Shown here piece by piece: positions 19,435 through 29,700 of a stretch of DNA of 64,000 bases. The notes beneath the pieces were generated by a model. The model was not told the origin of the DNA, did no database searches, and worked only from the letters and a program-made list of their open reading frames with translations. The position numbers were made by a program, and so were the translations under genes. This DNA comes from the human T2T-CHM13v2.0 reference genome, Homo sapiens. Positions within the stretch are counted from its first letter, which is position 1. Every line of letters starts with the position of its first letter. Location: the NCBI RefSeq assembly GCF_009914755.1, contig NC_060926.1; one strand, 5' to 3'.

Positions 19435-20451
19435 ATGGGGAAAAAACAGAGCAGAAAAACTGGAAACTCTAAAAAGCAGAGCACCTCTCCTCCTCCAAAG
19501 GAACGCAGCTCCTCAACAGCAATGGAACAAAGCTGGATGGAGAATGACTTTGACGAATTGAGAGAAGAAGGCTTCAGATGATCAAACTACTCTGAGCTAC
19601 AAGAGGAAATTCAAACCAAAGACAAAAACGTTGAAAACTGTGAAAAAAATTTAGACGAATGTATAACTAGAATAACCAATACAGAGAAGTGCTTAAAGGA
19701 ACTGATGGAGCTGAAAGCCAAGGCTTGAGAACTACATGAAGAATGAAGAAGCCTCAGGAGCTGATGTGATCAACTGGAAGAAAGGGTATCAGTGACGGAA
19801 GATGAAATGAATGAAATGAAGTGAGAAGAGAAGTTTAGAGAAAAAAGAATAAAAAGAAATGAACAAAACCTCCAAGAAATATGGGACTGTGTGAAAAGAC
19901 CAAATCTATGTCTGATTGGTGTACCTGAAAGTGACGGGGAGAATGGAACCAAGTTGGAAAACACTCTGCAGGATGTTATCCAGGAGAACTTCCCCAATCT
20001 AGCAAGGCAGGCCAACATTCAAATTCAGGAAATACAGAGAACACCACTAAGATACTCCTCGAGAAGAGCAACTCCAAGACACATAATTGTCAGATTCACC
20101 AAAGTTGAAATGAAGGAAAAAATGTTAAGGGCAGCCAGAGAGAAAGGTCGGCTTACCCACAAAGGGAAGCCCATCAGACTAACAGCTGATCTCTCAGCAG
20201 AAACTCTACAAGCCAGAAGAGAGTGGGGGCCAATATTCAACATTCTTAAAGAAAAGAATTTCCAACCCAGAATTTCATATCCAGCCAAACTAAGCTTCAT
20301 AAGTGAAGGAGAAATAAAATACTTTACAGACAAGCAAATGCTGAGAGATTTTGTCACCACCAGGCCTGCCCTACAAGAGCTCCTGAAGGAACCACTAAAC
20401 ATGGAAAGGAACAACCGGTACCAGCCACTGCAAAATCATGCCAAATTGTAA
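19435..20451 (+). pseudogene. E2 L1 ORF1, several in-frame stops in the 5' half
   Basis: ATGGGGAAAAAACAG start; TGA stops near 19580-19765; C-terminal 186 aa open (KRPNL...QNHAKL). Confidence 0.9.
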
Positions 20452-20514
20452 AGACCATCAAGGCTAGGAAGAAACTGCATCAACTAACGAGCAAAATAAC
20501 AAGCTAACGTCATA

Positions 20515-25998: not shown

Positions 25999-26740
25999 GG
26001 AAATTCAAGCAAATAAATAATGTTTCAAATACATGCCAGTTCAGCAAGCAGAGGGAAATTCCTAGTGAAGTGATTCTATGTTGTCCTTCCCAATGATTGG
26101 GAGAGTCTGATGTGCTAATTATAAAATAATTTAATACCTAAGTCTTTTGTGGGTTTTGGCAACATAGAAAAAAAGGCTTACTTGGTATGAATTGCTATAA
26201 TGGAATATTTATCAGAAGAAGCTAACTTTATCCACTACAGAATGCTTTTTGATGTCATTAACCTACAGAAATGATTTTAGGAAAGTAGTGGAAAAGTATC
26301 CACAGGGTGAGGTGACAAGAAGCTTTCTTTTGCTCCTAAAGGCTACATTGAGTAATGTAGCAAGCAACAGTCCTCTGGAGTCCAGTGAGTAAGTAATCAG
26401 AGAGCACCTGAAACAAAGGCCTTCAAAAAGTCTTCAGATTCCTTGTATTAATCACATTAATACTGACTCTCAGAAGACACTGTGTAATTATTAAATAAGG
26501 TGACTTCTCTGCAAAACTACAAAATCTATAGACCTAAAAATCTAAGTAATATAAATCATGATCAACATGCTCCCTGTTGGCTCTGGAGAAAATAGTTTAA
26601 TAAAAAGAATATTATACTTGTACTCATGACACCCAAGTTCAAAATTCTACGCTGCCACATACAGATACATAGACACTGTGGCTTACCCACCTGCCCAAGT
26701 CTCAGCTTCCTCCTCTGTGGAATAAGAATACACTGACTTC

Positions 26741-29700
26741 CTTATTTCTGCCTTCATTTCATTATGTACCCAGTAGTCATTCAGGAGCAGGTTGTTCAGT
26801 TTCCACGTAGTTGAGCGGTTTTGAGTCAGTTTCTTAATCCCGGGTTCTAGTTTGATGGCATTGTGGTCTGAGAGACAGTTTGTTATAATTTCTGTTCTTT
26901 TACATTTGCTGAGGAGAGCTTTACTTCCAACTATGTGGTCAATTTTGGAATAGGTGTGGTGTGGTGCTGAAAAGAATGTATATTATGTTGATTTGGGGTG
27001 GAGAGTTCTGTAGATGTCTATTAGGTCCGCTTGGTGCAGAGCTGAGTTCAATTCCTGGATATCCTTGTTAACTTTCTGTCTCGTTGATCTGTCTAATGTT
27101 GACAGTGGGGTGTTAAAGTCTCCCATTATTATTGTGTGGGAGTCTAAATCTCTTTGTAGGTCACCAAGGACTTGCTTTATGAATCTGGGTGCTCCTGTAT
27201 TGGGTGCATATATATTTAGGATAGTTAGTTCTTCTTGTTGAATTGATCCCTTTATAATTATGTAATGGCCTTCTTTGTCTCTTTTGATCTTTGTTGGTTT
27301 AAAGTCTGTTTAATCGACTAGGATTGCAACCCCTGCTTTTTTTTGTTTTCCATTTGCTTGGTAGATCTTCCTCCATCCTTTTATTTTGAGCCTATGTGTT
27401 TCTCTGCACTTGAGATGGGTTTCCTGAATACAGCACACTGATGGGTCTTGACTCTTTTTCCAATTTGCCAGTCTGTGTCTTTTAATTGGAGCATTTAGCC
27501 CATTTACATTTAAGGTTAGTATTGTTATGTGTGAATTTGATCCTGTCATTATGATGTTAGCTGGTTATTTTGCTCGTTAGTTGATGCAGTTTCTTCCTAG
27601 CCTCGATGGTCTTTACAATTTGGCAGGTTTTTGCAGTGGCTGGTACCGGTTGTTCCTTTCCATGCTTAGTGGTTCCTTCAGGAGCTCTTGTAGGGCAGGC
27701 CTGGTGGTGACAAAATCTCTCAGCATTTGCTTGTCTGTAAAGTATTTTATTTCTCCTTCACTTATGAAGCTTAGTTTGGCTGGATATGAAATTCTGGGTT
27801 GGAAATTCTTTTCTTTAAGAATGTTGAATATTGGCCCCCACTCTCTTCTGGCTTGTAGAGTTTCTGCTGAGAGATCAGCTGTTAGTCTGATGGGCTTCCC
27901 TTTGTGGGTAAGCCGACCTTTCTCTCTGGCTGCCCTTAACATTTTTTCCTTCATTTCAACTTTGGTGAATCTGACAATTATGTGTCTTGGAGTTGCTCTT
28001 CTCGAGGAGTATCTTAATGGTGTTCTCTGTATTTCCTGAATTTGAATGTTGGCCTGCCTTGCTAGATTGGGGAAGTTCTCCTGGATAATATCCCACAGTG
28101 TGTTTTCCAACTTGGTTCCATTCTCCCCGTCACTTTCAGGTACACCAATCAGATGTAGATTTGGTCTTTTCACACAGTCCCATATTTCTTGGAGGCTTTG
28201 TTCCTTTCTTTTTATTCTTTTTTCTCTAAACTTCTCTTCTCACTTCATTTCATTCATTTCGTCTTCCATCGCTGATACCCTTTCTTCCAGTTGATCACAT
28301 CAGCTACTGAGGATTGTGCACCCGTCACATAGTTCTCGTGCCGTCTCAAAATAATAATAGCTATCTATGACAAACCCACAGCCAATATCATACTGAATGG
28401 GCAAAAACTGGAAGCATTCCCTTTGAAAACTGGCACAAGACAGGGATGCCCTCTCTCACCACTCCTATTCAACATAGTGTTGGAAGTTCTGGCCAGGGCA
28501 ATCAGGCAGGAGAAGGAAATAAAGGGTATTCAATTAGGAAAAGAGGAAGTCAAATTGTCCCTGTTTGCAGATGACATGATTGTATATCTAGAAAACCCCA
28601 TCGTCTCAGCCCAAAATCTCCTTAGGCTGATAAGCAACTTCAGCAAAGTCTCAGGATACAAAATCAATGTGCAAAAATCACAAGCATTCTTATACACCAA
28701 TAACAGACAAACAGAGAGCCAAATCATGAGTGAACTCCCATCCACAATTGCTTCAAAGAGAATAAAATACCTAGGAATCCAACTTACAAGGGATGTGAAA
28801 GACCTCTTCAAGGAGAACTACAAACCACTGCTCAATGAAATAAAAGAGGATACAAACAAATGGAAGAACATTCCATGCTCATGGGTAGGAAGAATCAATA
28901 TCGTGAAAATGGCCATACTGCCCAAGGTAATTTATAGATTCAATGCCATCCCCATCAAGCTACCAATGACTTTCTTCACAGAATTGGAAAAAACTACTTT
29001 AAAGTTCATATGGAACCAAAAAAGAGCCCACATTGCCAAGTCAATCCTAAGCCAAAAGAATAAAGCTGGAAGCATCATGCTACCTGACTTCAAACTATAC
29101 TACAAGGCTACGGTAACCAAAACAGCATGGTACTGGTACCAAAACAGAGATATAGACCAATGGAACAGAACAGAGGTCTCAGAAATAATGCCACATATCT
29201 ACAACTATCTGATCTTTGCAAACCTGACAAAAACAAGCGATGGGGAAAGGATTCCCTATTTAATAAATGGTGCTGGGAAAACTGGCTGGCCATATGTAGA
29301 AAGCTGAAACTGGATCCCTTCCTTACACCTTATACAAAAATTAATTCAAGATGGATTAAAGACTTACATGTTAGACCTAAAATCATAAAAACCCTAGAAG
29401 AAAACCTAGGCAATACCATTCAGGACATAGGCATGTGCAAGGACTTCATGTCTAAAACACCAAAAGCAATGGCAACAAAAGACAAAATTGACAAATGGGA
29501 TCTCATTAAACTAAAGAGCTTCTGCACAGCAAAAGAAACTACCATCAGAGTGAACAGGCAACAGAATGGGAGAAAATTTTTGCAACCTACTCATCTGACA
29601 AAGGGCTAATATCCAGAATCTACAATGAACTCAAACAAATTTACAAGAAAAAAACAACCCCATCAACAAGTGGGAGAAGGATATGAACAGACACTTCTCA

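What the first reader, a model, noticed from the sequence alone, without database searches (positions are those of the whole stretch)
19880..29510. Patchwork of shared non-CpG variants between E2 and both arms of E3
Seen, as E2/E3 positions: gggactGtgtg 19889/28175; aatttCcaacc 20262/27802; ggaaCcacta 20392/27672 (LKEPL instead of LKEAL); ttggaAaaag 20606/27458 (ANWKKSQ instead of WIKSQ); agagaTttag 20919/27148; cccatCcac 22791/28742 (ELPSTI); tctCattaaa 23554/29504. E1 and E4 mostly show the usual base at these sites. Between the shared sites E2 and E3 still differ at many positions and have different 3'UTR diagnostics, so E3 is not a duplicate of E2. Sharing is densest in the E3 arm inverted relative to E2. 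Inference: many separate short conversion tracts, possibly favoured by fold-back pairing.
Basis: partly seen in the sequence, partly recalled or inferred. Interest (0 to 1): 0.82.

Follow-up and report, generated by a model that had tools for sequence, protein, structure and literature searches.

The report
Gene conversion between two neighbouring L1s
Two independently inserted L1 retrotransposons that lie about 6 kb apart in opposite orientation have copied patches of sequence from one another, a known kind of repeat-to-repeat gene conversion seen here in unusually clear detail.

Summary
All seven cited sites are in the sequence as described. E2 (19004-24563, +) and E3 (26741-30500) are separate insertions with their own target-site duplications, and E3 is twin-primed (inverted arm plus direct arm).

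I compared them with 51 unlinked L1 copies from the same genome. Four of the seven lie in a 351-bp stretch (20048-20398) where E2 and E3 are identical. In 885 control pairs of similar divergence, that interval holds 3 to 21 differences (median 11).

E2 is a younger L1 type but carries older-type bases at 19829 and 20022. E3 is an older type but carries younger-type bases at 20685 and 21151. Sequence therefore moved in both directions, in at least four patches. No unlinked locus that I could check carries the combination of variants.

The direct arm gives no signal above chance. Only 22791 is rare, and 23554 is a common variant.

Verdict: this is local non-allelic gene conversion between inverted L1 segments. 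The main tract is much younger than either insertion. It is a clear new example of a known process, not a new kind of system.

The parts
19004..24563 (+). E2: 5'-truncated L1 of the younger type ('Y'), an independent insertion
   Evidence: BLAST layout. 16-bp target-site duplication at 18988-19003 and 24564-24579. Y-type states at 12 of 14 subfamily-diagnostic sites in the haplotype table.
26741..28342 (-). E3 inverted arm (twin-primed 5' segment), older type ('O'); the partner of E2 19722-21332
   Evidence: Inverted repeats I1-I3; BLAST layout. The 17-bp target-site duplication at 26724-26740 and 30501-30517 encloses both arms. O-type at 12 of 14 diagnostic sites.
28346..30500 (+). E3 direct arm (3' segment with A-rich tail), same insertion event as the inverted arm
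   Evidence: No conversion signal above chance: the longest run identical to E2 is 120 bp, like the controls (110, 142). One rare shared site.
20048..20398 (+). Main conversion tract in E2: 351 bp identical to E3, holding rare shared variants 20048, 20152, 20262 and 20392
   Evidence: run of 351; next longest 104 and 88. (lowest P of 1431 pairs, 5.1e-6; 885 control pairs have 3-21 differences here, median 11).. It probably extends left to 20022, where E2 has the O-type base.
27666..28016 (-). The same tract in E3's inverted arm; the inferred donor copy
   Evidence: Coordinates follow from the site pairs (E2 position + E3 position = 48064). Donor inferred from the O-type state at 20022 in both elements.
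19829..19889 (+). Left patch or patches in E2: O-type base at 19829 (0 of 33 Y copies) and rare shared G at 19889; E3 partners at 28235 and 28175
   Evidence: Separated from the main tract by 7 E2/E3 differences at 19909-20047, and the two sites are separated from each other by differences at 19860 and 19868.
20606..20685 (+). Patch where E3 took E2-type sequence: rare shared A at 20606 and Y-type A at 20685 in E3 (0 of 18 O copies); E3 partners at 27458 and 27379
   Evidence: Bounded by own-type sites 20565 and 20901.
20919..20919 (+). Isolated rare shared T (E3 27148), in a 104-bp identical run bounded by own-type or private sites at 20901-20903 and 21008; direction unknown
   Evidence: Genome-wide, 175 places carry this 19-mer against 7615 with the usual base.
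21151..21151 (+). Site where E3 (about 26917) carries the Y-type T (1 of 18 O copies), between own-type 21094 and the end of the arm
22791..22791 (+). The only rare shared site in the direct arm (E3 28742), near an O-type base in E2 at 22720; not above chance on its own
   Evidence: 47 places genome-wide carry the 19-mer.
33875..39934 (-). E4: full-length L1 of the youngest type, used as an in-window control; shares only 20152-C (E4 38309) with E2 and E3
10406..17399 (+). E1: old L1 (about 85% identical to the others), interrupted at 13451-14848; used as outgroup; also carries C at the 20152-equivalent site (11548)

Best explanation
After both elements had inserted, homologous repair between E2 and the oppositely oriented 5' arm of E3 copied short stretches from one element into the other without crossing over. 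This is non-allelic (ectopic) gene conversion. The partner segments are 1.6 kb long, about 95.5% identical, and 5.4 kb apart at their inner ends.

Shown: the shared variants, the identical tract, the mosaic of subfamily states, and the intact flanks of both elements.

Inferred: (1) E3 donated 20022-20392, and probably 19829 and 19889, to E2. (2) E2 donated 20606-20685 and 21151 to E3; E4 is a possible alternative donor for the two subfamily sites. (3) There were at least two events of different age. The main tract has no difference in 351 bp, while the other patches are surrounded by a normal density of later private changes. (4) The main tract is at most about a quarter as old as E2's insertion. 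The inverted arrangement may help the two copies pair within one chromatid, but that step was not tested.
For: Independent insertions: each element has its own target-site duplication, and E3's encloses both arms.

Rarity: 7 non-CpG variants are shared by E2 and E3 but carried by 0-1 of 51 unlinked copies. Those copies are the best genome-wide matches to E2 or E3, so they are biased toward sharing.

Tract: the 351-bp identical run is 20048-20398. E2-E3 has the lowest P of 1431 pairs (5.1e-6). Of 886 pairs with 60-95 total differences, only E2-E3 has 2 or fewer differences in that interval (it has 0; median 11). E2 or E3 against any unlinked copy shows 7-16 differences there.

Mosaic: E2 carries O-type bases at 19829 (0 of 33 Y copies) and 20022 (1 of 33). 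E3 carries Y-type bases at 20685 (0 of 18 O copies) and 21151 (1 of 18). Both keep their own type at the other 12 of 14 diagnostic sites.

Like-for-like control: 594 unlinked Y x O pairs share 0 (552 pairs), 1 (40) or 2 (2) rare non-CpG variants, against 7 for E2 x E3, or 3 outside the main tract. In-window controls E2-E4 and E3-E4 share 1 each in the inverted-arm region and 0 each in the direct arm.

Genome-wide exact 19-mers: 20392-C occurs at 22 places, 20152-C at 29, 20606-A at 53 and 20919-T at 175, against 7615 for the usual base at 20919. The three lists that are fully shown (20392, 20152, 20606) overlap one another only inside the window.

Ranking: E2 ranks third of 40 scored matches (9752 candidates) for E3's inverted arm.
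Against: Only 40 of roughly 9,200-9,800 candidate copies were scored in each similarity search, so a small unlinked lineage could have been missed.

Four 19-mer lists show only the first 100 places. Cross-checks involving 20262, 20919 and 20048 are therefore incomplete. Exact 19-mers also miss copies with a nearby change.

Pairs of the variants do occur together elsewhere. An old L1 at C1:41.84 Mb (85% identical, L075) has 20048-T, 20262-C and 20392-C. C5:114.085 Mb has 20262-C with 20919-T. C1:147.49 Mb and C2:80.82 Mb have 20048-T with 20262-C. I judge these to be about the number expected by chance from the list sizes, but that is an estimate.

Two of the seven variants (20048-T, 20152-C) are also E1's bases, and 20152-C is also in E4. 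Not every shared site need have come from an E2-E3 exchange.

The small patches are each marked by one or two sites. No outgroup species or second human assembly was available to show the state before conversion.
Confidence: 0.85

Rival explanations
1. Shared descent: the variants mark a minor L1 lineage, and both E2 and E3 were copied from members of it.
For: Small lineages do exist. The unlinked pair L011/L027 shares 3 variants seen in no other of the 54 copies compared. Among all 1275 unlinked pairs, one shares 4 rare variants and one shares 3. Some pairs of the variants co-occur at unlinked old L1 copies.
Against: E2 and E3 belong to different subfamily types and differ at 12 non-CpG diagnostic sites in the same arm. 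None of the 51 nearest unlinked copies carries more than one of the 7 variants with either element (E2 x each O copy and E3 x each Y copy give 0 or 1). The fully listed 19-mer sets for 20392, 20152 and 20606 overlap only in the window. Descent cannot explain a 351-bp perfect match when everything around it differs at about 1 site in 17.
Confidence: 0.04
2. Exchange at the moment E2 inserted: the new cDNA, or the repair of the insertion break, used nearby E3 as a template, so the patches are as old as E2.
For: This could account for the small patches (19829/19889, 20606-20685, 20919, 21151), which are surrounded by a normal density of private changes in both elements.
Against: It does not fit the main tract. 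From E2's private-change density outside the tract (21 in 1260 bp), about 12 differences would have built up in 351 bp since insertion, and none is seen (my calculation). It also does not explain transfer from E2 into E3.
Confidence: 0.05
3. Assembly or polishing artefact that blended two similar repeats.
For: Nothing from my calls. It is a general possibility for repeats.
Against: The copies differ at 74 of 1611 columns and lie about 6 kb apart, so single long reads would span both (general knowledge, not tested). An artefact would not produce a reciprocal mosaic at subfamily sites several hundred bases apart.
Confidence: 0.03
4. Independent parallel mutation at the same sites.
For: Each variant also occurs singly elsewhere in the genome at about 0.3-3% of copies. 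The single direct-arm site 22791 is adequately explained this way.
Against: From about 28 and 32 private changes in 1.6 kb, I estimate 0.2-0.5 coincidences, against 7 observed. The empirical maximum in 594 matched unlinked pairs is 2. Parallel mutation does not explain the absence of any difference across 351 bp.
Confidence: 0.01

Closest known systems
Non-allelic gene conversion between neighbouring Alu elements
   Same: Post-insertion sharing of non-diagnostic (private) mutations between nearby copies of a dispersed repeat, and occasional switching of diagnostic sites. In the passages I read, PMC6598467 attributes to Aleshin and Zhi 2010 elevated conversion rates between copies within 10 kb. 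PMC8230782 (passages read) reports old-to-young as well as young-to-old conversion and loci converted more than once.
   Different: Here the partners are L1s of two subfamily types. One of them is the inverted 5' arm of a twin-primed insertion. The partner segment is 1.6 kb rather than 0.3 kb, so several patches and both directions can be resolved within one pair.
Recombinant or mosaic L1 copies
   Same: A single L1 copy that combines diagnostic states of two lineages. PMC13192797 (passages read) removed 35 of 2,267 young full-length L1 sequences as recombinants.
   Different: That screen names donor groups, not a physical neighbour. Here the donor can be identified as the adjacent element, because its rare variants were carried across with the tract.
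Inversions by recombination between inverted L1 or Alu pairs (PMC2603318; title and abstract start seen in a search listing only)
   Same: The same substrate: two oppositely oriented retrotransposon copies on one chromosome pairing with each other.
   Different: That outcome is a crossover, which flips the DNA between the copies. Here both elements keep their own flanks and target-site duplications, so the outcome was conversion without crossover, or an even number of crossovers.
Arm-to-arm conversion in large palindromes such as those of the Y chromosome (recalled; no call)
   Same: Intrachromosomal conversion between inverted repeats separated by a spacer.
   Different: Palindrome arms are kept near-identical along their length. 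Here the arms are about 4.5% diverged and only patches have been exchanged.
Twin priming (L1 5' inversion; mechanism recalled as Ostertag and Kazazian 2001, not read here)
   Same: E3 has an inverted 5' segment joined directly to a direct 3' segment, one pair of target-site duplications and an A-rich tail.
   Different: About 1,060 bp of L1 sequence between the two arms is missing. As I recall, that is larger than the small gaps or overlaps usually described.

Membership tests
Non-allelic (ectopic) gene conversion between dispersed repeats | A stretch of identity between two paralogues that is longer than their overall divergence allows | tested here: met
   351-bp identical run; lowest P of 1431 pairs (5.1e-6); the only one of 886 comparably diverged pairs with 2 or fewer differences in that interval.
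Non-allelic (ectopic) gene conversion between dispersed repeats | Variants private to the pair, absent from other family members, lying inside the tract | tested here: met
   20048, 20152, 20262 and 20392 are carried by 0-1 of 51 unlinked copies. The fully listed genome-wide 19-mer sets for 20152 and 20392 overlap only in the window.
Non-allelic (ectopic) gene conversion between dispersed repeats | Mosaic of lineage-diagnostic states, with own-type states in the flanks | tested here: met
   E2 has O-type bases at 19829 and 20022. E3 has Y-type bases at 20685 and 21151. Each keeps its own type at the other 12 of 14 sites.
Non-allelic (ectopic) gene conversion between dispersed repeats | No crossover: both loci keep their own flanks | tested here: met
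   Intact target-site duplications around E2 and around the whole of E3.
Non-allelic (ectopic) gene conversion between dispersed repeats | Unconverted state at the orthologous locus in a species or haplotype that predates the event | not testable with these tools
   The genome held has no relatives in the collection (notice). No other human or ape assembly was available.
Rare L1 sub-lineage (shared source element) | The variants occur together at unlinked loci on the same backbone | tested here: not met
   0 of 51 nearest unlinked copies shares more than one rare variant with E2 or E3. Cross-referenced 19-mer lists give only chance-level pairs, all on other backbones where examined. Four of the lists are truncated at 100 rows.
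Twin-primed L1 insertion (E3) | Inverted 5' segment abutting a direct 3' segment, enclosed by one pair of target-site duplications, with an A-rich 3' end | tested here: met
   The arms meet at 28342/28346. A 17-bp duplication lies at 26724 and 30501, and an A-rich tract precedes the right-hand copy.
Segmental or inverted duplication of E2 | Uniform high identity that extends into the flanks | tested here: not met
   Identity is 95.6% with subfamily-level differences. The flanks are unrelated and each element has its own target-site duplication.

The most novel reading that the evidence does not exclude
The whole four-element L1 cluster (E1-E4, about 30 kb) may be a local exchange network rather than one interacting pair, with even the roughly 85%-identical old element E1 feeding single-site patches into its young neighbours.

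Three observations support this. First, the base C at the 20152-equivalent site is present in all four elements, in 0 of 51 unlinked copies, and at only 29 places genome-wide. Seven of those 29 lie in chr2:31.5-36.2 Mb. Second, 4 of 21 rare non-CpG alleles in E2 and 4 of 22 in E3 match E1's base, against 5.2% (30 of 581) in unlinked copies. Third, exchange between E2 and E3 runs in both directions.

If true, dense L1 clusters would be places where very short, repeated conversion measurably reshapes old and young copies alike.
Probability: 0.15. Interest if true: 0.6.

Novelty: new member of a known kind. Interest (0 to 1): 0.4.

Why it matters
This locus shows post-insertion exchange between two L1 insertions of different age, with the donor and the direction identifiable and with at least two events of different age.

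Such exchange has practical consequences. It makes divergence-based ages and subfamily calls locally wrong. It can create false 'shared derived' markers. It also marks an inverted repeat pair that pairs often enough to be at risk of inversion.

The main tract is young relative to the insertions. It may therefore differ between apes or even between human haplotypes, which would allow the event to be dated directly.

Tried and rejected
External L1 copies from other collections. The search for related loci with E4's 587-aa ORF2 piece returned 1 locus from viral contigs (67% identity) and 3 from genome contigs (65-85%). None was a human-like copy, so none was used.

E1-polarised site patterns alone could not decide. 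E2 shares as many E1-polarised derived non-CpG sites with E4 (11 + 14) as with E3 (8 + 9). At first this suggested ordinary subfamily variants. It was resolved only once unlinked copies separated common from rare variants.

E1 as donor of the main tract was rejected. E1 differs from E2 and E3 at 9 sites between 20048 and 20152.

The old L1 at C1:41.84 Mb (L075) was rejected as evidence for a lineage. It is only 85% identical to E2 and E3 and was picked because it carried two of the variants.

This is uninformative.

Only 10 full-length direct-arm copies, plus 46-48 partial ones covering the first 450 bp or so, were used.
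Full report
LAYOUT. A BLAST of the full-length element E4 against the window gives four L1 elements.
- E1 is an old L1 at 10406-13451 and 14848-17399 (+), 81-85% identical to E4.
- E2 lies at 19007-24562 (+), 95% identical to E4.
- E3 has two abutting arms: 26736-28342 on the minus strand (L1 ORF1 to early ORF2) and 28346-30502 on the plus strand (late ORF2 to 3' end).
- E4 lies at 33875-39934 (-).

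The repeat finder shows the same E2/E3 inverted and direct pairs. E2 is flanked by a 16-bp duplication (18988 and 24564). E3 is flanked by a 17-bp duplication (26724 and 30501) that encloses both arms. E2 and E3 are therefore two independent insertions, and E3 is one twin-primed insertion.

THE OBSERVATION. All seven cited position pairs carry the stated base in both elements, and the three amino-acid readings are right. Overall, the three young elements are about equally far apart. In the inverted-arm region the identities are 95.6% (E2-E3), 95.4% (E2-E4) and 94.4% (E3-E4). In the direct-arm region they are 94.5%, 95.1% and 95.0%. With E1 as outgroup, E2 shares as many derived non-CpG sites with E4 (11 + 14) as with E3 (8 + 9). 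In-window comparison alone therefore cannot separate subfamily variants from local sharing.

UNLINKED COPIES. The window's own genome can be searched. Similarity searches with E2 19700-21300 and with E3's inverted arm each scored 40 of about 9,200-9,800 candidates. They yielded 60 loci. I dropped 3 that lie in the window itself and 6 duplicates, leaving 51 unlinked copies. These are the best matches to E2 or E3, so they are biased toward sharing variants with them. E2 is the third-best scored match of E3's inverted arm. E3 is not among the 40 scored matches of E2.

RARE VERSUS COMMON VARIANTS. At the five cited inverted-arm sites, the E2/E3 base is carried by 0-1 of the 51 copies. Other sites shared by E2 and E3, such as 20446, 20463 and 20997, are ordinary subfamily polymorphisms. 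In the same 1.6 kb, E2 and E3 differ at 21 E2-private sites, 25 E3-private sites, 24 sites where both bases are common among the 51 copies (12 of them non-CpG), and 4 gap columns.

THE MAIN TRACT. Four of the seven rare shared variants lie in a run of 351 identical bases (E2 20048-20398, E3 28016-27666). The next-longest runs are 104 and 88 bp.
- Among all 1431 pairs of the 54 young copies, E2-E3 has the lowest probability for its longest run (5.1e-6).
- Among 886 pairs with a similar total number of differences (60-95), the interval holds a median of 11 differences, and only E2-E3 has 2 or fewer (it has none).
- E2 or E3 against any unlinked copy shows 7-16 differences there.

DIRECTION AND PATCHINESS. 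The haplotype table splits the unlinked copies into an older type (O, 18 copies) and a younger type (Y, 33 copies). I could not attach subfamily names.
- E2 is Y-type except for O-type bases at 19829 (0 of 33 Y copies) and 20022 (1 of 33). Both lie in or beside the zone of rare shared variants, so E3 was the donor there.
- E3 is O-type except for Y-type bases at 20685 (0 of 18 O copies) and 21151 (1 of 18). Intermediate copies in the table suggest these two changes came late in the O-to-Y succession, so E3 is not a natural intermediate. It received Y-type sequence. E2 is implicated because the rare 20606-A travels with 20685.

Own-type diagnostic sites lie between the patches (20436, 20550, 20565, 20901, 21008, 21094). 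The minimum is therefore four tracts: 19829-20392 (possibly two or three), 20606-20685, 20919 and 21151.

NOT A LINEAGE. Exact 19-mers around the variants occur genome-wide as follows.

| Variant | Places |
|---|---|
| 20392-C | 22 |
| 20152-C | 29 |
| 20606-A | 53 |
| 20919-T | 175 |
| usual base at 20919 | 7615 |
| 20262-C | 196 |
| 20048-T (E2's version) | 239 |
| 22791-C | 47 |

The fully listed sets (20392, 20152, 20606) overlap one another only inside the window. A few pairs do occur together elsewhere.
- C1:41.84 Mb is an old L1, 85% identical to E2 and E3, carrying 20048-T, 20262-C and 20392-C.
- C5:114.085 Mb carries 20262-C and 20919-T.
- C1:147.49 Mb and C2:80.82 Mb carry 20048-T and 20262-C.

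From the list sizes I estimate that this is about the chance number.

Limits: four lists show only their first 100 rows, and exact matching misses copies with a nearby change.

PAIR CONTROLS. I counted variants seen in exactly two of the 54 copies. E2-E3 has 4 such non-CpG variants, the highest of 1431 pairs; the rest have 0 (1356 pairs), 1 (69), 2 (4) or 3 (1). E2 x E3 shares 7, or 3 outside the main tract. The in-window pairs E2-E4 and E3-E4 share only 20152 in the inverted-arm region and nothing in the direct arm.

DIRECT ARM. I used 10 full unlinked copies and 46-48 partial ones covering the first 450 bp or so. Only 22791 is rare (0 of 46). 23554 is common (2 of 10, and also in E4). The other E1-polarised shared sites in this arm are common too. 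The longest E2-E3 identical run is 120 bp, like the controls at 110 and 142 bp. E2 does carry an O-type base at 22720 (2 of 29 Y copies), 71 bp from 22791. That is suggestive but not significant. The density is 7 per 1.6 kb in the inverted arm against 1 per 2.1 kb in the direct arm. The direct-arm reference sample is small.

TIMING (inference). Outside the tract, E2 has 21 private changes in 1260 bp. If the tract dated from E2's insertion, about 12 differences would be expected in 351 bp, and none is seen. This puts the event at no more than roughly a quarter of E2's age (95% bound). With commonly quoted primate substitution rates (recalled), that is a few million years. The small patches sit among a normal density of private changes and are probably older. 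At least two events are therefore needed, or one older patchy event followed by a recent one. The converted sites show no GC bias (my tally).

WHAT IS KNOWN. Conversion between nearby dispersed repeats is established for Alu.
- In the passages I read, PMC6598467 attributes to Aleshin and Zhi 2010 elevated rates between copies within 10 kb.
- PMC8230782 (passages read) reports both directions between old and young Alus, and repeated conversion at one locus.
- PMC13192797 (passages read) screens out recombinant young L1s, removing 35 of 2,267.
- PMC2603318 (search listing only) describes inversions from recombination between inverted L1 or Alu pairs. That is the crossover counterpart of what is seen here.

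My three literature searches did not turn up a survey of conversion between neighbouring L1s. That is not evidence that none exists. This locus is a clear new example of a known process.

UNEXPLAINED. C at the 20152-equivalent site is present in E1, E2, E3 and E4 but in 0 of 51 unlinked copies. Of the 29 genome-wide places with that 19-mer, 4 are in the window and 3 more lie at chr2:31.54, 35.02 and 35.12 Mb. Rare alleles of E2 (4 of 21) and E3 (4 of 22) match E1's base more often than those of unlinked copies do (30 of 581, or 5.2%; only 1 of 51 copies reaches 4).

Noticed in passing
window 11548 (E1), 20152 (E2), 27912 (E3), 38309 (E4): All four L1 elements in the window, which are of three different ages, carry C at this ORF1 site, where 51 of 51 unlinked copies have G. 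The 19-mer occurs at only 29 places genome-wide: 4 here and 3 more on the same chromosome at 31.54, 35.02 and 35.12 Mb.
   Followed up: partly
window 19700-21332 (E2) and 26741-28342 (E3) versus E1 11150-12900: Rare non-CpG alleles of E2 (4 of 21) and E3 (4 of 22) match the base of the old neighbour E1 more often than rare alleles of unlinked copies do (30 of 581, 5.2%). Only 1 of 51 unlinked copies reaches 4 matches. Possible single-site transfers from E1.
   Followed up: partly
window 28342-28346 and 26724-26740 / 30501-30517: E3 is a twin-primed L1 with a 17-bp target-site duplication. About 1,060 bp of L1 sequence between the end of the inverted arm and the start of the direct arm is absent.
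   Followed up: partly
window 33875-39934 (E4, minus strand): Full-length L1 of the youngest type in the window. Its ORF2 region reads as two long open frames of 587 and 681 aa separated near 36165-36183, and its ORF1 region as a 248-aa frame.
   Followed up: no
window 13451-14848: The old element E1 is interrupted by about 1.4 kb that does not match L1. The hub's repeat mask suggests further repeats there. Not examined.
   Followed up: no
window 22750, 22900, 22947 and similar sites; loci L065-L074: At several sites the youngest L1 type (E4, L066, L074) has the same base as the old outgroup E1, while the O-type and intermediate copies share another base. The succession of these L1 types is therefore not strictly tree-like.
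   Followed up: no
loci L011 (C8:68.79 Mb) and L027 (C12:2.13 Mb): Two unlinked copies share 3 non-CpG variants seen in no other of the 54 copies. This is probably a genuine small source lineage. It shows what shared descent looks like in this data set.
   Followed up: no
window 31818-32601 and 41879-43079 (minus strand): Two further old L1 fragments, 70% and 82% identical to E4.
   Followed up: no
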